Below are positions 41,132 to 54,201 of a DNA stretch of 64,000 bases, one piece after another (positions within the stretch are counted from its first letter, which is position 1; each line of letters starts with the position of its first letter). The stretch is taken from contig CASDYX010000003.1 of NCBI GenBank assembly GCA_949286215.1, positions 46,537-110,536 on the forward strand. Reading direction: 5' to 3'. The notes under the pieces were generated by a model. It was given only the letters and a program-made list of their open reading frames with translations. It searched no databases and was not told the DNA's origin. The translations under genes and the position numbers were made by a program. Source of the DNA: an uncultured Pseudomonadota bacterium. Its GTDB lineage: Bacteria > Pseudomonadota > Alphaproteobacteria > RF32 > CAG-239.

Positions 41132-43186
41132 ATGACTGAAGAAAATACAGAACAGGAAACGCCCCTTGAAAACATTCCCGCTACCGAACCTGAGGTAATA
41201 GAAAATTTCCAGACCGGCAGCAAAGAAAATGTTTACGTTTTAAAGGAAAGATATACTATTGACTTTTCCGCTCCTTTAACGTGGCTAGATAACAACGGCG
41301 CCAAGGCATATAAAGTTGAAGACAAAATAAATGATAAAAAAGAACTATTTGCCCTGATTTGCAACAACTTCACTTCGCCGCGCAGTTCATTATTGCCCTA
41401 CTTAAAATCGATTGATCATCCGTCAATAATGAAACTTGTTGAATATGGCGTAGTCAGTTACGGCAAAGAAAATTCTCGGAATATGGCTTTAATCTACGAG
41501 CTGCCTCAAGGCGGAAAAGTAATTGATGCTCAAGGAGCCTACTCTCTCAAAAATCAACCCGAAAAATTCAAATCATTATTATTATCAATGCTTTCGGCTG
41601 TCGAAACCCTCAAAGGTTATGGGGTAACACATCGCGCCATTAGAGCTGATAATATTTATTACAAAGATGAGACCAGAGAACAATTAGTTCTCGGAGATTG
41701 TCTAGCCTCTTTTCCTGCCTACAACCAACCATCTGCGTTTGAAACCATAGAAAGTCTAATGGCACAAAAAGAAGGAAGAGGTAATGGTTCCGACAAGGAC
41801 GACATTTACGCTGTTGGTGTTTTAGCCTTACAATTACTTCTTGGACATTCCTTTTTTGATGATATGTCGGACAAAGAAGTCCTCAGACTTAAATTAAAGA
41901 AAGGAAGCTACCTCGCATTATTGAGCAATGATAAAATTTCTGCTCAATATGCAACCATCCTCAAAGGATTGTTAAACGACAATGAAGAAGAGCGTTGGAC
42001 CTATCTCCAAACATACAACCTCTTAGAAGGAAAACCTGGAAACACTCCTCAATCCAGCACGGAACGCCCCAAAAAGTCATTAACAATCAATGGTGAAAAA
42101 GTTTACAACATAACAGAAGTTGCTTACGCTCTTCTACAAAATCCCGAAGAAGGATATGACTTATTAAAATCTGGGAAAATTACTGATTGGATTAAAAACG
42201 GTCTGGAAAACGAAAAACTCAATACTCAAATTGAGAAGTTAATTCATACCAACTCGGAAAACACCTCCAGCCGAGAACTATTAATTTCCAAGCTGTGCAT
42301 AATGTTAGCCCCTCATCTGCCTCTAAAGTACAAAACCCTATGGCTTTTTCCGGCAGGCATTCCCAAATCCATATTTTTAGCCATAAAAAATAAAGAAAAT
42401 TTAAGTATTTATTACGATTTATTCAATTCAGACTTAATAAAATTATGGTATCAAGAACAAAGTAATGTCAGAGCACCAGCTAACAGCGGAGAATTTAAAA
42501 GTTACATCAGTCGCCGCGATATGGGCTATGGAATTGACCGTATTATGTACGATTTTGATGAAGATTTACCCTGCATCAGCCCCTTACTTGGCGAAGAATT
42601 TGTAAACAGCGCTCCCCGCATTTTAAGAGCTTTAGACAACACCTATGCTCACACCAAAGTAATGTCCATGCCTTATGATCGCAACATAATGGCTTACCTT
42701 CGCTGTAAAATGGGCAAAAAAATCGATGGAATTTTAACCGATATCAATACCGGACGAGAAGCTTTGCAAGCCAGTGCTATTTTGCGCCTATACACAGATA
42801 TGCAAAATAAATACGGTCCGTCACAGCTTCCAAATTTAGCCAAATGGCTGGTAAGTGCTTGCATGTTGACAATAAAGAGTTATCACAACGTCAAATATCA
42901 AAAATATTTGGAACGAGAAGTTCTTAAAATACACAAGAATGGCAAACTTCATGAAATTACGGAAATAATTGAAAATGAAGAAGCCAGACAAAAAGACAGC
43001 ATCGACTATGCCAACGCGCTAAAGAATGCAAATTTATTAATAAGCGAAAAAAATAATTTACAAAACAATTCTGCCAAATGGGATGACGAAGCCCGAGAAG
43101 TTGCAATGCGTTTTGCAAATATTTTAGCTCTGCTAACAATGATTGCTTCTTTTGTTCTTAACCTTTTCTTTTGGATATTAAAATGA
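41132..43186 (+). CDS. eukaryotic-like protein kinase fold protein (predicted pseudokinase) with a C-terminal TM helix
   Basis: The order of kinase subdomains is recognisable: HPSIMKLVEYG; hinge ALIYELPQGG; catalytic loop GVTHRAIRADNIYY (HRD-to-HRA); LVLGDCLAS (DFG-to-DCL); DIYAVGVLALQLLLG (subdomain IX). No glycine-rich loop. C-terminal hydrophobic helix. Confidence 0.5.
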   Translation: MTEENTEQETPLENIPATEPEVIENFQTGSKENVYVLKERYTIDFSAPLTWLDNNGAKAYKVEDKINDKKELFALICNNFTSPRSSLLPYLKSIDHPSIMKLVEYGVVSYGKENSRNMALIYELPQGGKVIDAQGAYSLKNQPEKFKSLLLSMLSAVETLKGYGVTHRAIRADNIYYKDETREQLVLGDCLASFPAYNQPSAFETIESLMAQKEGRGNGSDKDDIYAVGVLALQLLLGHSFFDDMSDKEVLRLKLKKGSYLALLSNDKISAQYATILKGLLNDNEEERWTYLQTYNLLEGKPGNTPQSSTERPKKSLTINGEKVYNITEVAYALLQNPEEGYDLLKSGKITDWIKNGLENEKLNTQIEKLIHTNSENTSSRELLISKLCIMLAPHLPLKYKTLWLFPAGIPKSIFLAIKNKENLSIYYDLFNSDLIKLWYQEQSNVRAPANSGEFKSYISRRDMGYGIDRIMYDFDEDLPCISPLLGEEFVNSAPRILRALDNTYAHTKVMSMPYDRNIMAYLRCKMGKKIDGILTDINTGREALQASAILRLYTDMQNKYGPSQLPNLAKWLVSACMLTIKSYHNVKYQKYLEREVLKIHKNGKLHEITEIIENEEARQKDSIDYANALKNANLLISEKNNLQNNSAKWDDEAREVAMRFANILALLTMIASFVLNLFFWILK

Positions 43187-43686
43187 GCAAAATAAACCCT
43201 GTCAGACCTATCCGAAAACTCCCCTCACAAAGAGGAAATAGTTTTCGTTTAAATATTTTTCAAAAAGTATTATTAACTCTGGCGCTTTTAATTGCGGTAG
43301 TAACCACTCTTCCGGTAATGGTTGTTTTACTCATTGGATTACTTCCAACATTTACAATCATGATAACCGACAAAAACAACACCAACAAACTCATCATTGT
43401 CGGCTGTTTTAATCTGGCTGGTGTATTTATTTACCTATTCCATGTCATAAGCAACTTTACCATTCGCGACGCCTTTTTTATCTTCAGCGACATATTTAAT
43501 TTAATCATAATGCTTGGCTCTGCCGGATTAGGATTAATTGTCTATTTAGAAGTCCCCAATCTTTTCATTTACATTTATAAAATAATGGCACAAAAACGCC
43601 TCAAAACCATAGATGAGCAACTAAACAAATTAGCAGAAGACTGGGGTGAAGGAATTAAAGGTAACGGAGCCACGCCGACTGTTTAA
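43171..43686 (+). CDS. polytopic membrane protein (171 aa, 4 predicted TM)
   Basis: Overlaps the kinase-like gene by 16 nt. Hydrophobic segments are present. Confidence 0.4.
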   Translation: MDIKMSKINPVRPIRKLPSQRGNSFRLNIFQKVLLTLALLIAVVTTLPVMVVLLIGLLPTFTIMITDKNNTNKLIIVGCFNLAGVFIYLFHVISNFTIRDAFFIFSDIFNLIIMLGSAGLGLIVYLEVPNLFIYIYKIMAQKRLKTIDEQLNKLAEDWGEGIKGNGATPTV

Positions 43687-46046: not shown

Positions 46047-47084
46047 ATGAGTGAGAATCAACAACCCAAAAAGGTATTCAAAAAAATAAAACACAAAAGA
46101 CCAATGTCCCAAGGTTCAAGAATTCCTCCCACGATGTCTGTTCCCGCATCAACCGAAGCAGACATTAAAGCCCTATTGGCAGAAGACACGCCGCCTCAAG
46201 AGCAAAAGGTCTCTTCCACTCCCCAAAACAATGATGAAGAAGACGAATTTGAGCGTTTACTTAATGAATTCATCAGTGCCGAATTAGATGATTCATTAGA
46301 AAATGCCCAAGAAAATTTGGAAAATGTAAAAAACGGCGACATCCAAGAACAAAAACAAACTCTTCCTTTCAGCAACACCGATGAAGAAAACGCCAACCTT
46401 CTGGAAGATCCTGAAAAATCTCTTTATCGAGCTTATCAAAATTACTTTTTTGCGATTCGAGCAATGACTGAGAGTAAAAATATTACTCCTACATCTCCCT
46501 CTCTCACCGCCGAAAATTTTTACCCTCACTACAAACCACGCCTTGGCATTCGCATTTCCAAAGAAATTATGCAAGGTTGGGATATAATGCTCAAAGTATT
46601 TCCTCAAGATTTAGCATCATTAAATCCCGGAGGAACTGATGATGAGCTTTTAGACTTTGCGGAACAAGCCAATGATGAAAATTTACAATTAGCCGTAATT
46701 TCTTATGTTGAGATTTTAATTGAAATGGAAGGCTGCGATATTCAATATGAAACACGCAAACTTAAAGCCGAGCGTCGTAAAATTGAAAAAGAGATTTACG
46801 AAGCCCATCAAGCGCGCGTAGAACGCAGCCAAAAATATATAGAAGCCATCAAAAACAAAGAATTTCCAATAGATGCCGAAAGATTGGTCAAAAACTTTTT
46901 CAAAACCTCAAATAAAGATGCCGAAGGAGCTTATAAAATGCTAACCACCAATCCGGCAACTTTTTCGCCAATTGAAATCAGCAAAATCAGGCCTAGACTC
47001 TTTGGGCTCATTAAAGTTACACCACAAGATGGCATTAGAGTAAATCGCGAAATTGGAGAATTTATAAAAAAACTAAAAGCATAA
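46047..47084 (+). CDS. acidic hypothetical protein (345 aa)
   Basis: ORF in a tight co-directional cluster. No recognised domain. Confidence 0.4.
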   Translation: MSENQQPKKVFKKIKHKRPMSQGSRIPPTMSVPASTEADIKALLAEDTPPQEQKVSSTPQNNDEEDEFERLLNEFISAELDDSLENAQENLENVKNGDIQEQKQTLPFSNTDEENANLLEDPEKSLYRAYQNYFFAIRAMTESKNITPTSPSLTAENFYPHYKPRLGIRISKEIMQGWDIMLKVFPQDLASLNPGGTDDELLDFAEQANDENLQLAVISYVEILIEMEGCDIQYETRKLKAERRKIEKEIYEAHQARVERSQKYIEAIKNKEFPIDAERLVKNFFKTSNKDAEGAYKMLTTNPATFSPIEISKIRPRLFGLIKVTPQDGIRVNREIGEFIKKLKA

Positions 47085-47154
47085 ATGTTTTTACAAAAAT
47101 ATAGACAAAAAACATTTTTAATGCTACACTAAAGTTAATGAACAAGATTTTAAG

Positions 47155-48618
47155 GTGAAGAATATGGCAGATACCCCTAAAACAGTAAGCGTAAACGAAG
47201 CATCCGCTCCTCAAGCCCCACAACCGGTACAACAACCGGCACCTCAACCTACGCCTCAAAACAATTCTGAGCCGCAAAGAACCATTGCCTTATCACAAAA
47301 CCCCAAGAAAGAAGCTCAAACCTTCCAAGGAATGACTGTTGCTCAAAAATTAAACTATCTTAATATTAAAGAAAAGCGCGGAATTTTAACTCCTGATGAA
47401 CGTAAGCAACAGGAAGAATGCCGCGAGCAATTAGCTAAAGAACAAGAAGGTGATGAAGGTGAAATCACTCCTGAAGACGGAACCAAGGTCGGCGATAAAG
47501 ATGATGAACCCAAAGACCTCTTCAAAGAACAAGACATCATTCAATATATGTATAATGAGTGGCTGTTAGGCGGCGCCAACTGGCTCTACAAAAAAACCTA
47601 CAAACAAGTTGACAAGATGTATGAGTCATTCAAAAATCGTTGTGCTCAAGCTAAAATGGATGCCCAAAAACGCAAAAATGCAACTTATGACACCATTACC
47701 ACCCGTGATAACATTGATGACAAAGCAGTCAAACTTTATGATGGGCAAAAGGCCTCTATCGACAAAGGCAAGGAAGGACTTAAAGCTGTTTTAGAAGACA
47801 TTAAAAACGGCAATATTGATGCCTCCAAAGCCACAGGCTTAACCAAACGCCTTATGCAAGAATTGCCTGAAGGCAAACGTCAACAATTTTGCACCGAAGC
47901 ACAAGCCATGATTGAAAACTTGGCTGAGAATATGAAAACCATTCATTTCGTTGCAGGTCAACTTGCTCGTGCCCAAATGGCTGAAAGCATATGTATCAAC
48001 CAAAACGCTTTCAAAAATTCCGTGCCGGCCAATGTTTTTGAGGCCATGGAAAAACGCAACGCCTTAGCTATTGCCGCCCAAATGGATGAATGGCAAAAAC
48101 AAGGCAAGAATCCGGCTAAACTCATTCAAAAATTAAAAGATGACGTTGAAAAAGCCAACAAATTTGCCGACAAGCAATACAAGAAAGAAAAATTTGATGA
48201 AGCTGGCAAAAAAGGTAAAGAAAACAAGACGCTCCGTAAAATTAACGAAACTTTAGGTATTCCCTCTGAAGAAGTCACTAAACCACAACACTACGCACCA
48301 CAAACCATGTTGCAGCATTTGATTGTATCAAACAACTTGGAAATGGGAATAACAGAAAAACTAAACAAACTAAATGGCCGTCAAATGGTTCAGGCGGCAC
48401 GGAATGACAACTATCAAGACAGGAGAGCCAATCTGCATAACCGTGTAGCTAACGCTGCACGATATAGTGAAATGATACGTTCTCGTGTCAACCCGAATGG
48501 TCTTCTTGTAATGGATACGCAAGGACAACGTCGCGCGCAACAACTCCAAGGCGTACGCCCGCAATTTAATATGGATGCCTACCGCATGGCTCAACAGCAA
48601 CAAGGAGCCACTAAGTAA
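47155..48618 (+). CDS. hypothetical protein (487 aa), Pro/Gln-rich N-terminus, predicted coiled coil
   Basis: ORF in a tight co-directional cluster. Low-complexity PQ-rich N-terminus. Confidence 0.4.
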   Translation: MKNMADTPKTVSVNEASAPQAPQPVQQPAPQPTPQNNSEPQRTIALSQNPKKEAQTFQGMTVAQKLNYLNIKEKRGILTPDERKQQEECREQLAKEQEGDEGEITPEDGTKVGDKDDEPKDLFKEQDIIQYMYNEWLLGGANWLYKKTYKQVDKMYESFKNRCAQAKMDAQKRKNATYDTITTRDNIDDKAVKLYDGQKASIDKGKEGLKAVLEDIKNGNIDASKATGLTKRLMQELPEGKRQQFCTEAQAMIENLAENMKTIHFVAGQLARAQMAESICINQNAFKNSVPANVFEAMEKRNALAIAAQMDEWQKQGKNPAKLIQKLKDDVEKANKFADKQYKKEKFDEAGKKGKENKTLRKINETLGIPSEEVTKPQHYAPQTMLQHLIVSNNLEMGITEKLNKLNGRQMVQAARNDNYQDRRANLHNRVANAARYSEMIRSRVNPNGLLVMDTQGQRRAQQLQGVRPQFNMDAYRMAQQQQGATK

Positions 48619-48620
48619 CC

Positions 48621-49118
48621 ATGCTCAAAAAGCTTCTGAAATTTTGCAAATGGCTTATGGTCGGAATAATCTGGACGTATGTATTTTTATACGCCAGCTT
48701 ATTTTTCACCAGTACAATTTGGAATTTCAACTACCTATCACTCATTGATTGGGAAATTATTTCAGCTTATTGGAATCAAGGCGGCAGCATTAAAGAAGCC
48801 ACTGATTACGGTCTATTTCTGACCTTAATTTTACTCATTCCGTTCTGGATTTTAGGCTGGAGATTTTTCTATCATCGAGATTTCATAGCCCTCATACTAG
48901 CTCCCATAAACTGGTATAATCAAAAACAAATAAAAAAATATGGTCAAAACGCCTCACGTATTGTTATAAAGAATATGGGAAGCACAGGCAAAAAAATTAA
49001 TCCCGAAGAAGTAATTGAAGCAAAATTAAAAGATTTCAAATCGAATATGGAGCACCAAGAAAAAAACTCAGATATCTTAAGAGAAAAGCTCAAAGAGAAA
49101 TTTGATAAAAAAAATTAA
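48621..49118 (+). CDS. membrane protein paralogous to the N-terminal transmembrane domain of the VirD4-like coupling protein
   Basis: TM1, aromatic periplasmic loop and TM2 (WNFNYLSLIDWEIISAYWNQGG...LFLTLILLIPFWILGW) align by eye with the same region of 49178 and of the VirD4-like protein (YWNWLKQISNY...LWLPILPFISLPFG). No ATPase domain. Confidence 0.45.
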   Translation: MLKKLLKFCKWLMVGIIWTYVFLYASLFFTSTIWNFNYLSLIDWEIISAYWNQGGSIKEATDYGLFLTLILLIPFWILGWRFFYHRDFIALILAPINWYNQKQIKKYGQNASRIVIKNMGSTGKKINPEEVIEAKLKDFKSNMEHQEKNSDILREKLKEKFDKKN

Positions 49119-49177
49119 ATAAAGAATTAACCAATAAGAGATAAACTTAACGCAAAACAAATGGGAGAAAATAACCT

Positions 49178-50488
49178 TTGAAACCCTTTTTAATAACAGT
49201 CCGCATTATATTTGTAGGCATCTTCTGGAGCATATTTTTTCTGGAAGGGATAAGGGTTATTATGCTCACCAACTGGCGTTTTGATATTTTCCGTTCCCGC
49301 CATTGGGAGCATTTATACAATCTATGGTACCAAGGTTGGACCATACAAGCTCCCAAAGAATGGGCATTTATCTTAATCATTTTAACATTTATTCCTTTAT
49401 GGTTAACCGGCTGGGCTGCTTTAAGCTTGATAGAGTGGGATAAACTATTGGTTAAATTGGTCGTTTACCCAATAAAACTCTTTCGAAAACTATTCTACAA
49501 ACAAGTAACTGTCATTGCGACTAAAAAGCATGGTCAACCAGTAAAAAAGAAAAGATCTTACAAAGAAATAAGACCTCGTAGTATCCGAGCTCCGATTGAT
49601 GACCGCATAGAAGATGCACTGCCTCGTCCGACAACATTGAGCAACCAAGTCACCAAAACACATAGCGCTCCCAAAATAACACCGCCTACTTTAGCCGCTT
49701 TGAGTTCTCCTCCTCCGAGTGAGCCTAAAACTTTTGATCATTCATTATTCCAATTTGACGATGGCGAAAGTGACGATTTCGACTTTAATTTTGATGCTTT
49801 TGATACTCCGCCTGCACCTCAAAAAGAAGAAAGTCCTAAGTCCGAGGAAAAAAGAGCTCCCCGAGAAAAAGAAAAAAACAAAGAAAATCGGGACTTTAGA
49901 GATACGAGAGAAAAGAAAGACTTTAGCAAAAGCCCTAAAGAGGGACGTAAACCTCAAGCTAATAATCGCGGAGAAAATCAAGTTCAGCGTGGCGGCTCTC
50001 TTATGGATGTTCTCAAACAAAAAGGCTATGAAATCATTACCGGAGCAACCCTTGCCAATAATTTAATAGACTTTATCGGTGTTGCCGATAAGAAAATTTG
50101 TGTTTGCCTGCTTGATAAAGAGCCCGGAGATTGGTTAGCCGATGAAGAAAGATTTAACGACGAGGAACCTCTCTGGTTTTCGGAAAGCAGCCATAGAATT
50201 TCTCCGGTCAGAAAAATTACGTTATCCTGCCAAGCTTTAGAAGAAAAATTAAAAGAAGCAGATTTAAATTTCAGCGTCATACCTTATGTCATTATTCAAC
50301 TCGGAAACATCATCAATGCCGAAGATATGTTTGAAATCTGGGATGATATGAAAGTTAATGTAACTCGTATTGACAGAGGTACTCCAAAAGAAATTAAGCT
50401 TTTTGCCAAAACTTTGGAAGAAGCTGAAAATCACATAGATAACGATAAATTTGAAAAGCTCAAAAAATTAATTCGTAATATAAAGTAA
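49178..50488 (+). CDS. membrane protein with a T4CP-N-terminal-like TM domain, a Pro/Glu/Lys-rich linker and a C-terminal NERD-like (nuclease-related) domain
   Basis: The N-terminus is paralogous to 48621 and to the VirD4 TM domain (HWEHLYNLWYQGW...FILIILTFIPLWLTGW). The C-terminal block GATLANNLIDFIGVADKKICVCLLDKEPG resembles the NERD core (IDHvvi..Givvievk). A low-complexity charged linker of about 150 aa separates them. Confidence 0.45.
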   Translation: MKPFLITVRIIFVGIFWSIFFLEGIRVIMLTNWRFDIFRSRHWEHLYNLWYQGWTIQAPKEWAFILIILTFIPLWLTGWAALSLIEWDKLLVKLVVYPIKLFRKLFYKQVTVIATKKHGQPVKKKRSYKEIRPRSIRAPIDDRIEDALPRPTTLSNQVTKTHSAPKITPPTLAALSSPPPSEPKTFDHSLFQFDDGESDDFDFNFDAFDTPPAPQKEESPKSEEKRAPREKEKNKENRDFRDTREKKDFSKSPKEGRKPQANNRGENQVQRGGSLMDVLKQKGYEIITGATLANNLIDFIGVADKKICVCLLDKEPGDWLADEERFNDEEPLWFSESSHRISPVRKITLSCQALEEKLKEADLNFSVIPYVIIQLGNIINAEDMFEIWDDMKVNVTRIDRGTPKEIKLFAKTLEEAENHIDNDKFEKLKKLIRNIK

Positions 50489-50511
50489 AAATAACCTAAA
50501 AGAGTAAGAAG

Positions 50512-52746
50512 ATGGAAAAACAAGGCGAAGAATGGGAAGAGTACAATAACGCGGTCCGTTGGGTATTGATAACCTTCATCATAACATTTCTGGTTACTGC
50601 AGCTTTGGCTATTATCTCTATGCCGTTGGGCTATCTAATTGGTAGCGGCGTATCCAAAGATACCTTAGGTGAAGTCGGAAAATTTTTACAAACCATATTC
50701 AACTCACCTGATTACCTGTTTTCCAGATATTGGAATTGGCTCAAGCAAATATCCAATTACCATGGTCCATTTTCTGTTGGGCTATGGCTTCCGATTCTCC
50801 CTTTTATTTCTTTACCTTTTGGTATTGTTATCGGCACCGTAAGCAACCCTTACCGTTTTCAATCCAATATTCACGGTTCCGCCCGCATTGCCGAGTTAAA
50901 AGACATTAAAAAGATGGGCTTACTTGATGGTTTCTGCATGGTTGTCGGCAAATACAAAGGGCATCTGTTAATGTTAAAAGAAACCCTTTCAACCTTGTGC
51001 TGCGCACCTCCGGGTACCGGTAAAACTGCCGGAGTAGTTATTCCGACAATTTTCCACTCTCACGGCATGAGCATTGTGGTAAACGACCCAAAACCTGAGT
51101 TGTGCTTCACTACCACGGGTGCCAGAGCCAAAGATGGACCGGTATTTGTCATTAACTGGGGTGCCGAAGATAATCCGGCAGAAGGTATTTATTACCCGAG
51201 CTGGAATCCTTTGTCGCCGAATGCTTTGCCAGCCCCTGGTCCTGACCGTGATATGTATGTGGACTCAATGTGTAATATTTTGGTTGAAGACCCGAAAGGC
51301 GGCGCAGACCCGCACTGGTCAAAAACCGGTCGTGCCGCACTAACCGGCTTCATACACTTTATTGCCTCCAAATGCGAGCGAGCTCGCGCCAACGACTACT
51401 TTATCGGCCGTGTTTATGAAGGTAAACTCGACGATGAAGATAAAAGAGTTCTGGAAGGCTACTATTTGGAAATGCGTGATCCTATGGCCGCTCAAGCCAT
51501 TCAAAACCTCCATAGCGGGACTTTAACGATTGATAACTATCTCCCGATAGGTACTTGGTCATTATTGCCCGAAAAATGGATTGGCCACGAATCTTGCCTA
51601 GCAATGATTTTGGAGTGGATTACCGAGTCGCAAATTAAACAATCCCAAGAAATCAAGCGCCGTCTTGATGAAGGTGACCAAATGGCCGCCATGGCAGACC
51701 CAATGCGTGATATGTTGGAAGAAGCCATAGAAGAAGCCAGAAAATACGGCTACTCACCACGTTGTATTGTAGAACTTAGCCAATTAAGTTCTATGCCTGA
51801 TAAAGAGCGTGGTTCCGTATTGTCCACCGGTTTCTCAGGTATTGGTATTTTCAAAAACTCAGCCGTTGTATCGCGTACCAGCTTTTCTGACTTACACTTT
51901 AAGGATTTGCGCGGTATGAAGGACCCGATTACCGGCGAGTGGAAACCAATTTCGGTTTATCTGTCAGTTAACCAAGTTGATGCGAGAGCCTTGGGTGTTA
52001 TTTCAGGAACATTTATTGAGTTAATGTCCTCTTACCTAATTGCTAACCCGCCAAAATTTCAAAACAAAACCGATGGTCAAATGGGACCTTTCCCAACCTT
52101 GTTTGTATTGGACGAGTTTCCGCAAATGCCTAAATTAAAAGCCATCATTGATGGTCCGGCGGTCGGACGTGGTCAAAAAGTATCATACTTGCTGATTGGC
52201 CAAGACTTAGGACAAATTTCGGGTAAATACGGAAAAGATGACTTGGAAACGGTTATTTCTACCACGGCTTGCAAAGTTATTTTATCTCAAAACAACGAGC
52301 AAACCGCCCAACGTTTCTCCAAAATGATTGGTAACAAAACCGTCCAAACCACCTCATTCTCAAAGAACGAAGGTATCAGCTTCCAAAAAGGCTCAAACCC
52401 GTTCAGTAAAAACGTTAGTTACCAATTACAAGGAACATCTGTAATTAGTACAACGCAATTGCTGAGCTTGCCGATGCTCAAACAAGTAGTTCTGATGCAA
52501 GGTTTCATTGATCGTCCGATTATGGCAGATGCCCCTCGTTTTTATCTGGATAAGCAAATGTTGGCCTTATCAAAACTTCCGCCATCACCTTATGTTCCGG
52601 ATTGGATTGTTGCCCAACGAGAAGATATCAATGAAGATATGCTCTCCAAACTGGGTATTGAATATGATCCGAACGAAGATTATGATGACGAAGACTTTGA
52701 TGATGACGACTATAATGAAGAAGACATCAATACAAACCCAAATTAA
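50512..52746 (+). CDS. virD4: type IV secretion/conjugation coupling protein, VirD4/TraG family (744 aa), with an acidic C-terminal tail
   Basis: Two N-terminal TM helices. The HGSARIA motif aligns with the VirD4 HGTARWA block. Walker A APPGTGKTAGVVIPT (compare VirD4 APTRSGKGVGVVIPT). LFVLDEFPQMPKL aligns with the VirD4 LFLLDEF..LGKL block. The D/E-rich C-terminus is DYDDEDFDDDDYNEED. Confidence 0.85.
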   Translation: MEKQGEEWEEYNNAVRWVLITFIITFLVTAALAIISMPLGYLIGSGVSKDTLGEVGKFLQTIFNSPDYLFSRYWNWLKQISNYHGPFSVGLWLPILPFISLPFGIVIGTVSNPYRFQSNIHGSARIAELKDIKKMGLLDGFCMVVGKYKGHLLMLKETLSTLCCAPPGTGKTAGVVIPTIFHSHGMSIVVNDPKPELCFTTTGARAKDGPVFVINWGAEDNPAEGIYYPSWNPLSPNALPAPGPDRDMYVDSMCNILVEDPKGGADPHWSKTGRAALTGFIHFIASKCERARANDYFIGRVYEGKLDDEDKRVLEGYYLEMRDPMAAQAIQNLHSGTLTIDNYLPIGTWSLLPEKWIGHESCLAMILEWITESQIKQSQEIKRRLDEGDQMAAMADPMRDMLEEAIEEARKYGYSPRCIVELSQLSSMPDKERGSVLSTGFSGIGIFKNSAVVSRTSFSDLHFKDLRGMKDPITGEWKPISVYLSVNQVDARALGVISGTFIELMSSYLIANPPKFQNKTDGQMGPFPTLFVLDEFPQMPKLKAIIDGPAVGRGQKVSYLLIGQDLGQISGKYGKDDLETVISTTACKVILSQNNEQTAQRFSKMIGNKTVQTTSFSKNEGISFQKGSNPFSKNVSYQLQGTSVISTTQLLSLPMLKQVVLMQGFIDRPIMADAPRFYLDKQMLALSKLPPSPYVPDWIVAQREDINEDMLSKLGIEYDPNEDYDDEDFDDDDYNEEDINTNPN

Positions 52747-52772: not shown

Positions 52773-53372
52773 ATGTGGGAGTGGTCAAATCAAAAACATC
52801 AAAATAACTTAATACTTCCTTATAATGATGATGACTCCTCCCTGCTCTCAGCCTATGATGATTTGCTCACCAAAGGCATTCCGCCTTCAGCCCAACCCTT
52901 TCAAAATGCGCTTAACAAACAGCATCTGCAAGACATTGCGGAGATGGAGCACAAACTTGAAAGAAAATTAAAAGAACTACACCTAACCACCTTTCATTTG
53001 GAAAAACACGCCTATCTTCCCCTCACTTGGGAAAAACAAACCTCCCTTTATCAAGAAACTTGGAAATTAAGAAACATCTTTCTGAAAAGGCTCGCCTATA
53101 CAGATGAATACGCTCTCAAAACAATAGGTCTGAACTTTCAAGACATAAATCTGCTAAAACAAGGAATTACCCCCGAAAACTTTAATGTTCATATTAAAAT
53201 TCCGTTTGACTTTGGAGGTAAGGCTGAATTAAATAATTTATGCTTAATGCGTGCCCACCCCACACACGAAAATTTACACAAAATCATAGACATTCAGTTA
53301 AATTCCAACTTTTTGCGCCAACAAAAAATGTTATTACTGCCAATTTCCGAGGGAAAAATCTGTCATGACTGA
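52773..53372 (+). CDS. HNH/EndoVII-fold nuclease domain protein (toxin-like)
   Basis: C-terminal NVHIKIPFDFGGKAELNNLCLMRAHPTHENLH fits the HNH core (H-h-h-P-x3-GG-x5-N-L-x2-L-C-x3-H-x2-H). 27 nt downstream of virD4 and overlaps the following SUKH gene. Confidence 0.5.
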   Translation: MWEWSNQKHQNNLILPYNDDDSSLLSAYDDLLTKGIPPSAQPFQNALNKQHLQDIAEMEHKLERKLKELHLTTFHLEKHAYLPLTWEKQTSLYQETWKLRNIFLKRLAYTDEYALKTIGLNFQDINLLKQGITPENFNVHIKIPFDFGGKAELNNLCLMRAHPTHENLHKIIDIQLNSNFLRQQKMLLLPISEGKICHD

Positions 53373-53781
53373 AAATTTACCGATAATTTATTTTCCCCCA
53401 ACCCTAATAAAAGAAATTGAAGAGAGCAACAATTGGCTTCTCATGCAAAAATTTTGCGCCCTGCCGGAAGAATATCAAAAATTTCTCCTCAACACCAACG
53501 GTCTAACTTGCAATGGACTAGATTTATATGGAAGTTGCGCTCATTATAGAGAAACAAAGAATTACAAATTTCCTTCCATTCAAGACATCAACAAAAATTT
53601 CATCAACTATCGTTTTTTCAAAGATAAAGTCATCATCGGCAATTGGAACGAGAGTCTGATTTATTACGATAAACGAGGCAACTACTATGCTCTTGCCGAC
53701 AGAATCAATCTGCGTTCAAGATACGAGGCCGATAGTTTTGAAAAAATCTTAAACTACCTTATGGAAGCCATAAAATCTTAA
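53365..53781 (+). CDS. SUKH (SMI1/KNR4) family immunity-like protein
   Basis: ALPEEYQKFLLNTNGL and VIIGNWNESLIYYDKRGNYYAL match the SUKH-1 signature. Its start overlaps the HNH gene stop (ATGACTGA). Confidence 0.55.
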   Translation: MTENLPIIYFPPTLIKEIEESNNWLLMQKFCALPEEYQKFLLNTNGLTCNGLDLYGSCAHYRETKNYKFPSIQDINKNFINYRFFKDKVIIGNWNESLIYYDKRGNYYALADRINLRSRYEADSFEKILNYLMEAIKS

Positions 53782-53786
53782 ATAGA

Positions 53787-53894
53787 CCAGACGAACCCTT
53801 GGGTTCGAGCCCGATGCAATTACAAAAACATTAAAATTTAAAAACAAAAAATCTCCCTCACGGGAGATTTTTAAATGGGGCGAACGATCGGGCT
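53787..53894. repeat. 108-bp direct repeat, copy A (tRNA-like T-arm fragment, terminator hairpin, last 19 nt of the tRNA-His 3' end); att-like
   Basis: Near-identical to 54037..54143 (one 1-nt indel). It ends exactly where copy B continues into the intact tRNA-His. Confidence 0.7.
53846..53871. terminator. bidirectional hairpin terminator (within repeat copy A); terminates the plus-strand T4CP cluster
   Basis: Perfect stem aaaatctccc/gggagatttt with loop tcac. T-run downstream on plus, and a T-rich run on minus. Confidence 0.5.
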
Positions 53895-54036: not shown

Positions 54037-54143
54037 CCAGACGAACCCTTGGGTTCGAGCCCGATGCAATTACAAAACATTAAAATTTAAAAACAAAAAA
54101 TCTCCCTCACGGGAGATTTTTAAATGGGGCGAACGATCGGGCT
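54037..54143. repeat. 107-bp direct repeat, copy B (overlaps the 3' end of tRNA-His)
   Basis: See copy A. Confidence 0.7.
54096..54121 (-). terminator. hairpin terminator immediately downstream of tRNA-His
   Basis: Same gggagatttt/aaaatctccc stem as copy A, 3 nt beyond the tRNA CCA end on the minus strand. Confidence 0.5.
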
Positions 54144-54201
54144 CGAACCGACGACAACCGGTACCACAAACCGGGGCTCTACCAACTGAGCTACGTTCGC
54201 C
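54125..54201 (-). tRNA. tRNA-His (anticodon GUG) with encoded G-1 and CCA
   Basis: The reverse complement folds as G(-1)-GCGAACG...; anticodon loop TTGTGGT; T-loop TTCGAGC; acceptor 3' strand CGTTCGC, then discriminator C, then CCA. The extra 5' G opposite the discriminator C is the tRNA-His hallmark. Confidence 0.85.

What the first reader, a model, noticed from the sequence alone, without database searches (positions are those of the whole stretch)
48621..50850. Tandem triplication of the T4CP N-terminal membrane domain: two TMD-only paralogs immediately upstream of virD4
The first 100-110 residues of 48621, 49178 and the VirD4-like protein share the same architecture and recognisable sequence similarity: TM1, an aromatic W/Y-rich periplasmic loop, then TM2. 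Examples are WNFNYLSLIDWEIISAYWNQGG...IPFWILGW; WRFDIFRSRHWEHLYNLWYQGW...IPLWLTGW; and YLFSRYWNWLKQISNYHG...LPFISLPFG. Only the third copy carries the ATPase. Free-standing copies of a coupling-protein membrane anchor are unusual. They suggest a hetero-oligomeric membrane assembly that recruits a NERD domain (on 49178) to the T4CP channel.
Basis: seen in the sequence. Interest (0 to 1): 0.65.

Follow-up and report, generated by a model that had tools for sequence, protein, structure and literature searches.

The report
Paralogous membrane-tethered nuclease-like partners of VirD4
The two small genes upstream of virD4 are copies of each other, not of the VirD4 membrane anchor; they belong to an undescribed family of membrane-tethered, nuclease-like proteins that sits next to an unusually conserved chromosomal VirD4 in several lineages of uncultured, mostly gut, Alphaproteobacteria.

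Summary
Partly confirmed. ORF1 (48621-49118, 165 aa) and the N-terminus of ORF2 (49178-50488, 436 aa) are true paralogs: BLASTP E=1e-11, profile-profile probability 99% (E=3e-18), z=13 against shuffles. The VirD4 membrane domain is not a detectable third copy: BLASTP E about 1, HHalign probability 0.1-0.2%, z=0.6-1.4. It shares only the generic two-helix hairpin topology.

ORF2 has a two-helix hairpin, about 160 disordered residues and a cytoplasmic PD-(D/E)xK (NERD-like) domain with a hyperconserved loop. No Pfam or NCBIfam model reaches its curated cut-off.

An ORF2-like gene lies directly upstream of this divergent VirD4 in four lineages with different flanking genes. An HNH-like gene and a SUKH gene follow. 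In two of these lineages the upstream copy is full length with a degenerate C-domain. ORF1 is therefore best read as a truncated paralog, and it is kept under purifying selection (dN/dS 0.05-0.12).

The locus is core chromosome. VirD4 (median 82% identity over 80 species) is more conserved than RpoH, and no other T4SS gene is nearby.

Most likely ORF1 and ORF2 form a heteromeric inner-membrane accessory of the coupling protein, analogous to DotI/DotJ or DotM. This is inferred, not shown.

The parts
48621..49118 (+). ORF1, 165 aa ('paralog A', truncated). N-in/C-in two-helix hairpin (aa 1-~85), a juxtamembrane amphipathic helix, a conserved P..YN...KYG....RIVLKN.G motif and a short charged tail. 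No C-terminal domain.
   Evidence: Present at 156-174 aa in 79 of 80 related loci. dN/dS 0.045-0.12. No Pfam, NCBIfam or PADLOC family.
49178..50488 (+). ORF2, 436 aa ('paralog B', full length), TTG start.
   Evidence: At least 946 protein clusters (90% identity) in public data and relatives in 371 GTDB species genomes. dN/dS about 0.05.
49178..49498 (+). ORF2 membrane domain (aa 1-107). Helices 2-33, 40-51 (periplasmic loop helix), 59-83 and 87-107. Homologous to ORF1 aa 2-105.
   Evidence: AF2 pLDDT about 80. HHalign probability 99%. Invariant W17, W33, F35, D36, H42, W43, W50, G53, KEWAF60-64.
49538..49594 (+). Conserved polybasic motif KKKRSYKEIRPRSIRAP within aa 121-139, in the disordered linker.
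   Evidence: Invariant K123, K124, S127-E130, R132, P133, P139. Also present in distant homologs P0199 and the L094 B copy. Function unknown.
49733..49804 (+). Conserved acidic/aromatic motif FDHSLFQFDD..DDFDFNFDAFD (aa 186-209) in the disordered linker.
   Evidence: Invariant F186, H188, L190, F191, F203, D206, F208. pLDDT below 50.
49994..50485 (+). ORF2 C-terminal cytoplasmic PD-(D/E)xK (NERD-like) domain (aa 273-436), with a D298...D313-K-E315 triad.
50126..50215 (+). Hyperconserved loop GDWLADEERFNDEEPLWFSESSHRISPVRK (aa 317-346), inserted in the nuclease fold. This is the family signature.
   Evidence: All but two of these 30 positions are invariant in 27 sequences (S337 and I341 are at least 90% conserved). 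W319, E323, P331, W333, S342, P343 stay invariant in a 30-sequence alignment of very distant homologs. Low model confidence, pLDDT 50-55.
50512..52746 (+). Divergent VirD4/TraG-type coupling protein, 744 aa. Own two-helix membrane domain (aa 1-~112, 50512-50847), Walker A A165-T172 (51004-51027), Walker B L530-P537 (52099-52122) and an acidic C-terminal tail.
   Evidence: PF02534 E=1.3e-55, PF12696, PF10412. All NCBIfam equivalogs are far below their cut-offs. 84% mean column identity in 21 species. dN/dS 0.015-0.022. Nearest plasmid T4CPs are 32-35% identical.
52773..53372 (+). o199, an HNH-like protein. Conserved N-terminal MWEWS; C-terminal PENxNxHxKxPxxFGG...N...H...H motif. Follows VirD4 in all four VirD4-linked lineages.
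   Evidence: AF2 pLDDT 83. Foldseek hits are weak (E 0.75-5) but include several HNH domains. No Pfam family.
53365..53781 (+). SUKH/YrhA-family protein (immunity-type), overlapping o199 by 8 nt.
   Evidence: NF038335 E=1.2e-15, above its cut-off. PF09346 E=2.7e-5, 25.2 bits, just below its 25.4-bit cut-off. Co-occurs with o199 in 33 of 80 loci and in L090, L091 and L094.
46047..48618 (+). o345 (46047-47084) and o487 (47155-48618). Clade-specific, co-oriented upstream genes, probably in the same operon. Not part of the module conserved across lineages.
   Evidence: Syntenic in the window's clade. No hits in L090, L091 or L094. No family or PDB match. o487 ends 2 nt before ORF1.

Best explanation
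ORF1 and ORF2 are paralogs of each other. They belong to an undescribed protein family with three parts: an N-in/C-in two-helix membrane hairpin, a long disordered linker, and a cytoplasmic PD-(D/E)xK (NERD-like) domain carrying a hyperconserved loop.

The family is genomically coupled to one divergent, chromosomal VirD4 subfamily. An HNH-like gene and a SUKH gene follow VirD4.

A tandem pair of family genes lies upstream of virD4 in at least three lineages. The downstream copy (B, here ORF2) keeps the canonical C-domain and a D...DxE acidic triad. The upstream copy (A) degenerates. In the window's clade it has lost the whole C-terminal domain and survives as ORF1, a membrane-domain-only subunit under purifying selection.

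Inferred mechanism: A and B pair through their homologous hairpins into a heteromeric inner-membrane complex. This complex holds the nuclease-like domain, on a roughly 160-residue flexible tether, at the cytoplasmic face beside the VirD4 hexamer. There it would act as a coupling-protein accessory, either a receptor/adaptor or a processor of the VirD4 substrate. The candidate substrates are the adjacent HNH-like protein or DNA.

Shown: paralogy, domain architecture, fold, topology by the positive-inside rule, conserved neighbourhood, and selection.
Inferred: heteromer formation, contact with VirD4, and any catalytic or adaptor role.
For: Paralogy.

Architecture and fold.

Topology: N-terminal K/R residues and a strongly basic segment after the second helix.

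Linkage to VirD4:
- Gap from ORF2 to VirD4 has a median of 16 nt in 80 species genomes; gap from ORF1 to ORF2 has a median of 60 nt.
- The same ORF2-like, VirD4, o199-like, SUKH order occurs in L090 (GC 51%), L091 (GC 38%) and L094 (GC 37%), each with unrelated flanking genes.

Tandem full-length A+B pairs: L090 and L094. The L094 A copy matches the ORF1 profile better than the ORF2 profile (76 against 58 bits), while its C-domain is degenerate.

Acidic triad: DDxE in every B copy next to VirD4, and lost in the positional A copies.

Selection: ORF1 dN/dS 0.045-0.12, and intact in 79 of 80 loci.

Precedents: DotI/DotJ is a full-length plus truncated paralog pair, 26% identical and mutually stabilising, that serves as membrane receptor of a T4SS ATPase (PMC11474061). 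DotM is a membrane-anchored partner of a coupling protein (PMC5802825).
Against: - No physical interaction was tested. AlphaFold-multimer was not available.
- ORF2-like genes occur without an adjacent VirD4 in at least two contexts: L088/L097 and L093.
- The acidic triad is not conserved across the wider family (strict DDE in 29 of 64 B-like representatives), so nuclease activity is uncertain.
- The C-domain also occurs in TPR-Roc-COR-TIR and AAA fusion proteins. Those architectures are more typical of conflict or sensor systems than of secretion.
- No other T4SS gene is in the 64-kb window, so the machine that VirD4 would feed was not seen.
- L090's upstream copy is more ORF2-like than ORF1-like. 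One ancient duplication and repeated duplications therefore cannot be told apart.
Confidence: 0.6

Rival explanations
1. The membrane domain of the coupling protein was triplicated in tandem, and ORF1 and ORF2 are free-standing copies of the VirD4 anchor that co-assemble with it.
For: All three have an N-in/C-in two-helix hairpin with an aromatic-rich loop and are encoded in tandem.
Against: BLASTP E 0.8-1.7. HHalign of deep family profiles gives probability 0.1-0.2%. z=0.6-1.4 against composition-preserving shuffles. The VirD4 loop is about 50 residues and the ORF1/ORF2 loop about 28. The closest full-length relatives of ORF1 carry the nuclease-like domain, not an ATPase.
Confidence: 0.04
2. 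The ORF1/ORF2 family works independently of VirD4. It would be a membrane-bound sensor or nuclease of a conflict (defence or toxin) module, with HNH and SUKH acting as a toxin-immunity pair. Adjacency to VirD4 would reflect co-inheritance rather than a shared machine.
For: The C-domain is found inside TPR-Roc-COR-TIR giants and fused to AAA ATPases. SUKH is an immunity-type family. o199 has an HNH-like motif. ORF2-like genes exist without a neighbouring VirD4. o199 and SUKH are present in only 33 of 80 loci of the clade.
Against: No PADLOC model matches ORF1, ORF2 or o199. The locus is core chromosome in strict synteny across 80 species. Purifying selection is very strong (VirD4 dN/dS 0.02) and the gene is close to universal in the clade. 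That is unlike the patchy, fast-turnover pattern of defence islands. The same gene order recurs in four lineages with different flanks.
Confidence: 0.2
3. ORF2 is a membrane-tethered DNA-processing enzyme, a relaxase-like or end-generating nuclease of the restriction-endonuclease fold. It would prepare DNA for pumping by VirD4, and ORF1 would be its inactive scaffold.
For: PD-(D/E)xK fold. The D298, D313, E315 triad is invariant in the clade and in every B copy next to VirD4. From my own knowledge, not tested here: the triad resembles the BamHI-type D...ExE variant, and MOBC relaxases are restriction-endonuclease-like. A polybasic motif in the linker could bind DNA.
Against: The triad is variable in the wider family. 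The most conserved element is a loop outside the canonical active site. The locus is not on a mobile element, and no oriT, relaxase accessory or mating-pair genes are nearby. ORF2 has no match in 72,556 plasmids.
Confidence: 0.13
4. ORF1 is a decaying gene fragment left by deletion of the C-terminal domain and has no function.
For: It is the truncated member of the pair. Its sequence is less conserved than ORF2 (median 37% against 55% identity).
Against: It is an intact ORF of 156-174 aa in 79 of 80 species. dN/dS is 0.045-0.12. W18, W34, F36, W51 and P95 are invariant, and it has its own conserved cytoplasmic motif.
Confidence: 0.03

Closest known systems
DotI/DotJ of the Legionella Dot/Icm system (PMC11474061)
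   Same: A full-length inner-membrane protein and a shorter paralog lacking most of the extramembrane domain. They are about 26% identical, encoded side by side, stabilise each other and form a heteromer that serves as membrane receptor for a T4SS ATPase. ORF2 and ORF1 show the same identity level and the same full-length plus truncated logic, next to a T4SS-type ATPase.
   Different: DotI and DotJ are single-pass proteins with a periplasmic VirB8-like domain, and they bind DotO (VirB4-type), not the coupling protein. ORF1 and ORF2 are two-helix hairpins with a cytoplasmic nuclease-like domain. There is no sequence relationship. Heteromer formation is proven for DotI/DotJ and only inferred here.
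DotM (IcmP) / TrbA, membrane partner of the DotL coupling protein (PMC5802825)
   Same: A membrane-anchored protein with N-terminal transmembrane helices and a cytoplasmic domain. I recall from my own knowledge, not checked here, that its gene lies directly upstream of the coupling-protein gene. It is part of the coupling complex and recruits substrates through charged motifs.
   Different: DotM has three predicted helices and an all-alpha cytoplasmic fold. ORF2 has two helices, a 160-residue disordered tether and a PD-(D/E)xK alpha/beta domain. The VirD4 here is type IVA-like (PF02534), not DotL-like. No homology was detected.
NERD / PD-(D/E)xK nucleases (PF08378; structural neighbours Can2, Bax1, NucS, AF1548)
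   Different: The score is below the Pfam gathering threshold. The canonical lysine is replaced (D-K-E rather than E-x-K). A 30-residue hyperconserved loop is inserted. The domain is membrane-tethered.
Canonical VirD4/TraG coupling proteins of alphaproteobacterial virB clusters
   Same: The 744-aa protein has the Pfam T4CP domains, Walker A and B motifs and an N-terminal two-helix anchor.
   Different: Only 32-35% identical to the nearest plasmid T4CPs, which sit at the end of virB8-9-10-11 clusters. Here it is chromosomal, not flanked by virB genes, and more conserved than RpoH across an entire clade.

Membership tests
T4CP (VirD4/TraG) N-terminal membrane domain, claimed for ORF1 and ORF2 | Detectable sequence or profile homology to the VirD4 membrane domain | tested here: not met
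   BLASTP E=1.7 and 0.79. HHalign probability 0.12% and 0.17%. Shuffle z=1.4 and 0.6.
T4CP (VirD4/TraG) N-terminal membrane domain, claimed for ORF1 and ORF2 | Two transmembrane helices, N-in/C-in, with a periplasmic loop | tested here: met
   Hydropathy and charge distribution and the AF2 helices. This feature is generic and not diagnostic.
T4CP (VirD4/TraG) N-terminal membrane domain, claimed for ORF1 and ORF2 | Membrane domain followed by a FtsK/HerA-type nucleotide-binding domain | tested here: not met
   ORF1 ends after a short tail. ORF2 carries a PD-(D/E)xK domain.
T4CP VirD4/TraG (the 744-aa protein) | Pfam T4SS-DNA_transf, TraG-D_C and TrwB_AAD_bind above gathering score | tested here: met
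   189.5, 82.5 and 60.2 bits against cut-offs of about 20-22.
T4CP VirD4/TraG (the 744-aa protein) | Intact Walker A and Walker B motifs | tested here: met
   APPGTGKT (165-172) and LFVLDEFP (530-537). G168-T172, D534 and E535 are invariant in 21 species.
T4CP VirD4/TraG (the 744-aa protein) | Membership of a named NCBIfam equivalog (VirD4, TraG-Ti, IncP TraG, and others) | tested here: not met
   Best score is 137.9 bits against a cut-off of 250. The others are far below their cut-offs.
T4CP VirD4/TraG (the 744-aa protein) | Encoded with, or working with, a mating-pair-formation / VirB channel | tested here: inconclusive
   No T4SS family among the precomputed Pfam hits of genes read across roughly 60% of the 64-kb window (about 1-20 kb, 27.5-32 kb and 47-64 kb); 20-27 kb and 32-41 kb were not scanned. 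The rest of the genome could not be searched.
NERD (PF08378) / PD-(D/E)xK nucleases, ORF2 C-domain | Pfam NERD gathering score | tested here: not met
   15.8 bits against a cut-off of 22.1, E=0.02.
NERD (PF08378) / PD-(D/E)xK nucleases, ORF2 C-domain | Restriction-endonuclease-like alpha/beta fold | tested here: met
NERD (PF08378) / PD-(D/E)xK nucleases, ORF2 C-domain | Catalytic D...(D/E)xK motif | tested here: inconclusive
   D298...D313-K314-E315 is invariant in the clade and is DDxE in all VirD4-linked B copies. It is variable in the wider family and lacks the canonical lysine. Three-dimensional clustering could not be inspected.
DotM/TrbA coupling-complex subunit | Homology or shared fold with the DotM cytoplasmic domain | tested here: not met
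   No Pfam or NCBIfam family other than a sub-threshold NERD match was reported for ORF2. The ORF2 C-domain is alpha/beta PD-(D/E)xK, whereas DotM is all-alpha (PMC5802825).
DotM/TrbA coupling-complex subunit | Physical association with the coupling protein | not testable with these tools
   Needs co-purification or complex prediction.
DotI/DotJ-type full-length plus truncated paralog heteromer | Adjacent paralogs, one lacking the extramembrane domain | tested here: met
DotI/DotJ-type full-length plus truncated paralog heteromer | Heteromer formation and mutual stabilisation | not testable with these tools
   No multimer prediction or experiment was possible.

The most novel reading that the evidence does not exclude
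The module of (A)/B membrane-tethered nuclease-like proteins, VirD4, an HNH-like protein and SUKH is a self-contained machine built around a coupling-protein ATPase and conserved across a whole clade. It would work without a classical VirB channel, or with a highly diverged one. For example, it could be an inner-membrane DNA or toxin translocation and processing device that is close to essential for these gut Alphaproteobacteria. That would explain why VirD4 evolves more slowly than RpoH.
Probability: 0.15. Interest if true: 0.8.

Novelty: new variant of a known kind. Interest (0 to 1): 0.5.

Why it matters
Coupling proteins are usually studied as lone gatekeepers of conjugative or effector type IV systems. 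Dedicated membrane partners are well characterised mainly for the Legionella DotL complex.

This locus points to a second, unrelated kind of partner: a pair of paralogous hairpin proteins that tether a restriction-endonuclease-fold domain beside VirD4. The ORF2 family has at least 946 clusters at 90% identity in public data and no annotation.

The same locus shows a chromosomal VirD4 under stronger constraint than a sigma factor across a whole clade of uncultured gut bacteria. That suggests a core physiological role for a protein normally associated with mobile elements.

It gives T4SS researchers a defined, testable set of genes. It also gives annotators a new domain signature (GDWLADEERFNDE.PLWFSESSH) that also appears in TIR/Roc-COR and AAA fusion proteins.

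Tried and rejected
Searches that found no family or structure:
- Pfam, NCBIfam, PADLOC and PHROGs scans of ORF1, ORF2, o345, o487 and o199 gave no family.
- Sequence and profile searches of the PDB with VirD4, o345 and ORF2 gave nothing meaningful.

Searches limited by the tool:
- A profile search with the shared membrane domain in the word-indexed database returned only clade members and fragments.
- The metagenome scan for more ORF2-like loci failed. The first alignment was too diverse. The VirD4 linkage outside the clade therefore rests on six lineages sampled by hand.

Literature:
- Searches for RF32 with secretion, NERD with coupling protein, and VirD4 with SUKH found nothing on this system.

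Ideas considered and rejected:
- ORF1 as pseudogene: rejected by dN/dS and conservation.
- A defence island: disfavoured by core synteny and the absence of PADLOC hits.
- A mobile element inserted at tRNA-His that carries the whole locus: the synteny from rpoH and rluD to VirD4 is fixed across the clade, and only the o199/SUKH end is variable.
- The two small ORFs between virB11 and virD4 on the Microvirga plasmid: by eye they show no similarity to ORF1.

Full report
**What is at the coordinates**

The region holds three co-oriented genes:
- ORF1, 48621-49118, 165 aa.
- ORF2, 49178-50488, 436 aa, TTG start.
- A VirD4/TraG-type coupling protein, 50512-52746, 744 aa.

The third protein is a coupling protein by Pfam: PF02534 E=1.3e-55, plus PF12696 and PF10412. 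It reaches no NCBIfam equivalog cut-off. ORF1 has no family. ORF2 has only a sub-threshold NERD match: PF08378, E=0.02, residues 273-373. Each protein begins with two hydrophobic helices.

**Check of the observation**

ORF1 and the ORF2 N-terminus are homologous:
- BLASTP gives 26% identity over 124 residues, E=1e-11.
- I built family alignments from 81 loci. HHalign gives probability 99%, E=2.7e-18 over 104 columns.
- The local alignment score is 13 standard deviations above composition-preserving shuffles, with 0 of 1000 reaching it.

The VirD4 N-terminus is not detectably related to either:
- BLASTP E=1.7 and 0.79.
- HHalign probability 0.12% and 0.17%.
- z=1.4 and 0.6, with 97 and 248 of 1000 shuffles reaching the score.

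The claimed triplication is therefore a duplication. VirD4 shares only the generic N-in/C-in hairpin topology.

**What ORF2 is**

The AlphaFold2 model used a 27-sequence alignment. It shows three parts:
- A helical membrane domain, residues 1-107, pLDDT about 80.
- A disordered stretch, residues 112-272.
- An alpha/beta domain, residues 273-436, pLDDT 70-90.

The alignment shows these conserved elements:
- An almost invariant membrane domain.
- A polybasic motif, KKKKSYKEIRPRSIRAP.
- An acidic/aromatic motif, FDHSLFQFDD..DDFDFNFDAFD.
- An acidic triad, D298...D313-K-E315.
- A 30-residue hyperconserved loop, GDWLADEERFNDEEPLWFSESSHRISPVRK.

The strongly basic segment after the second helix places the C-domain in the cytoplasm. 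That is the side of the VirD4 ATPase.

**Distribution and context**

The window comes from an uncultured gut alphaproteobacterium. Relatives are labelled Candidatus Scatocola, CAG:495, or 'uncultured Azospirillum'. ORF2 has at least 946 clusters at 90% identity and relatives in 371 GTDB species genomes.

In 80 fetched loci the order rpoH, rluD, o93, o345, o487, ORF1, ORF2, VirD4 is essentially invariant. Median gaps are 60 nt from ORF1 to ORF2 and 16 nt from ORF2 to VirD4.

Surrounding genes are housekeeping: relA, era, rnc, flagellar genes, mipZ, pgm, fliQR and flhB. No other type IV secretion gene was found among the genes read across about 60% of the window.

Median identity to the window across the 80 loci:

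| Protein | Median identity |
|---|---|
| VirD4 | 82% |
| RpoH | 77% |
| RluD | 66% |
| ORF2 | 55% |
| ORF1 | 37% |
| o487 | 28% |

dN/dS values:

| Protein | dN/dS |
|---|---|
| VirD4 | 0.015-0.022 |
| ORF2 | about 0.05 |
| ORF1 | 0.045-0.12 |

ORF1 is therefore a maintained gene, not debris.

**Beyond the clade**

An exhaustive HMMER search of 1.84 billion representatives with the ORF2 profile found 411 proteins at E<=1e-3. Among the best 150:
- 80 have the same hairpin plus C-domain architecture.
- Most N-only and C-only hits are short, apparently partial sequences.
- A few carry the C-domain in other proteins: TPR-Roc-COR-TIR giants and AAA fusions.

I looked up gene contexts for six diverse members.

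| Locus | GC | Arrangement |
|---|---|---|
| L090 | 51% | Two full-length family members in tandem, then VirD4, an o199-like gene and SUKH |
| L094 | 37% | Same as L090. The upstream copy's hairpin matches the ORF1 profile better than the ORF2 profile (76 against 58 bits), and its C-domain is degenerate |
| L091 | 38% | One family member, then VirD4, o199-like and SUKH |
| L088, L097, L093 | about 35% (L097 not computed) | A family member with no VirD4 next to it |

The flanking genes differ among all these lineages.

The conserved unit is therefore [A] - B - VirD4 - HNH-like - SUKH. In the B copy beside VirD4 the acidic triad is DDxE in all four lineages. In the positional A copies it is lost. 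In the window's clade the A copy has lost the whole C-domain, and that truncated copy is ORF1.

I could not decide whether A and B arose once or repeatedly. L090's upstream copy is more B-like.

**The coupling protein**

Walker A and B motifs are intact and invariant. The nearest plasmid-borne relatives are only 32-35% identical. They sit in the normal place, at the end of virB8-9-10-11 clusters on alphaproteobacterial megaplasmids. ORF2 has no match in 72,556 plasmids.

This is a divergent, chromosomally fixed VirD4 lineage. Whether a VirB channel is encoded elsewhere in these genomes could not be tested.

**How it most likely works**

Shown:
- Two homologous hairpin proteins are encoded in tandem.
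- One is truncated and both are under purifying selection.
- The full-length one tethers a nuclease-fold domain in the cytoplasm.
- There is tight, repeatedly conserved linkage to VirD4.

Inferred:
- The homologous hairpins pair into a heteromer with an active or canonical B subunit and a scaffold A subunit.
- This heteromer sits beside the VirD4 hexamer as an accessory.
- It either recognises the substrate or processes nucleic acid.

The precedent for the heteromer is DotI/DotJ. These are 26% identical, one is truncated, they stabilise each other, and they form the membrane receptor of the DotO ATPase (PMC11474061). The precedent for a membrane-anchored coupling-protein partner is DotM (PMC5802825).

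I give the structural and evolutionary account high confidence. I give the accessory-to-VirD4 function moderate confidence. Overall confidence is 0.6.

Rival explanations:
- An independent conflict or sensor module, 0.2. It is supported by the TIR/Roc-COR and AAA fusions and the HNH-SUKH pair. It is opposed by core synteny, extreme conservation and the absence of PADLOC hits.
- A relaxase-like DNA-processing role, 0.13.
- ORF1 as pseudogene, 0.03.

**The downstream pair**

o199 (52773-53372) has a conserved motif, PENxNxHxKxPxxFGG...N...H...H. Its model is confident, pLDDT 83. Its PDB neighbours are statistically weak (E 0.75-5) but include several HNH domains: teneurin C-terminal region, Cas8-HNH, Gme HNH and McrA.

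The next gene is a YrhA/SUKH immunity-type protein (NF038335, E=1.2e-15).

The pair follows VirD4 in all four VirD4-linked lineages but in only 33 of 80 loci of the window's clade. It could be a dedicated toxin substrate with its immunity protein. That would point to an antibacterial role for the system. This reading is suggestive only.

**Comparison with known systems and novelty**

ORF1 and ORF2 fail the membership test for the T4CP membrane domain. ORF2 meets the fold criterion for PD-(D/E)xK nucleases, but not the Pfam NERD threshold or the canonical catalytic motif. It is not a DotM homolog.

Functionally the closest analogies are DotI/DotJ and DotM. I rate it a new variant of a known kind, namely membrane accessory subunits of type IV ATPases. 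It is built from an unannotated family.

Interest is 0.5. What replaces it is a clade-wide, highly constrained VirD4 module with tethered nuclease-like paralogs, which would surprise a T4SS specialist and is directly testable.

Noticed in passing
window 53787-53894 and 54037-54143 (tRNA-His at 54125-54200, minus strand): A direct repeat of about 107 nt with 250-nt spacing. It comprises a 70-nt stretch that is 100% identical and an overlapping 64-nt stretch at 88%. It includes the last 19 nt of tRNA-His and its terminator hairpin. This is an att-like duplication just downstream of the variable o199/SUKH pair, and it suggests a past integration or excision hotspot.
   Followed up: partly
window 52773-53781: An HNH-like protein (o199, conserved N-terminal MWEWS) and a SUKH/YrhA immunity-type protein overlap by 8 nt directly after virD4. 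The same pair follows VirD4 in three distant lineages (L090, L091, L094) but in only 33 of 80 loci of the window's clade. It may be a dedicated toxin and immunity substrate pair.
   Followed up: partly
window 50512-52746 and loci L003-L082: The chromosomal VirD4 is more conserved than neighbouring housekeeping genes: median 82% identity against RpoH 77%, MipZ-like 81% and RluD 66%. dN/dS is 0.015-0.022. No other T4SS gene was found in the parts of the window that were scanned.
   Followed up: partly
proteins P0249, P0264 (about 1500 aa) and P0297, P0300 (about 520 aa): The ORF2 C-domain, with its ADEERFNDE.PL(W/Y)F.ESS signature, also occurs inside TPR-Roc-COR-TIR giant proteins and at the N-terminus of AAA+ ATPases. 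It is therefore a mobile, unannotated domain that also appears in conflict-system-like architectures.
   Followed up: partly
window 46047-48618: o345 and o487 are two clade-specific genes upstream of ORF1 with no family or PDB match. o345 has an acidic N-terminus and a conserved C-terminal half. o487 is Q/K/E-rich and evolves very fast (median 28% identity). o487 ends 2 nt before ORF1, so they are probably co-transcribed.
   Followed up: partly
L088 2624-7523 and L097 4180-9329: In an AT-rich lineage the ORF2-like gene has no VirD4 next to it. Instead it follows a double-HTH_3 protein and three unknown genes in conserved order, and it is convergent with fabA. This may be an alternative context for the family.
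   Followed up: no
window 41132-43686: A Ser/Thr protein kinase (684 aa) and an overlapping 171-aa ORF are kept in synteny with the rpoH-rluD-VirD4 block in most related genomes.
   Followed up: no
L086 and L087 (GCA_018263635.1, GCA_018263615.1): Two NCBI assemblies carry the same locus, but ORF2 and VirD4 are split into several frames. These look like frameshift errors of the assemblies rather than pseudogenes.
   Followed up: no
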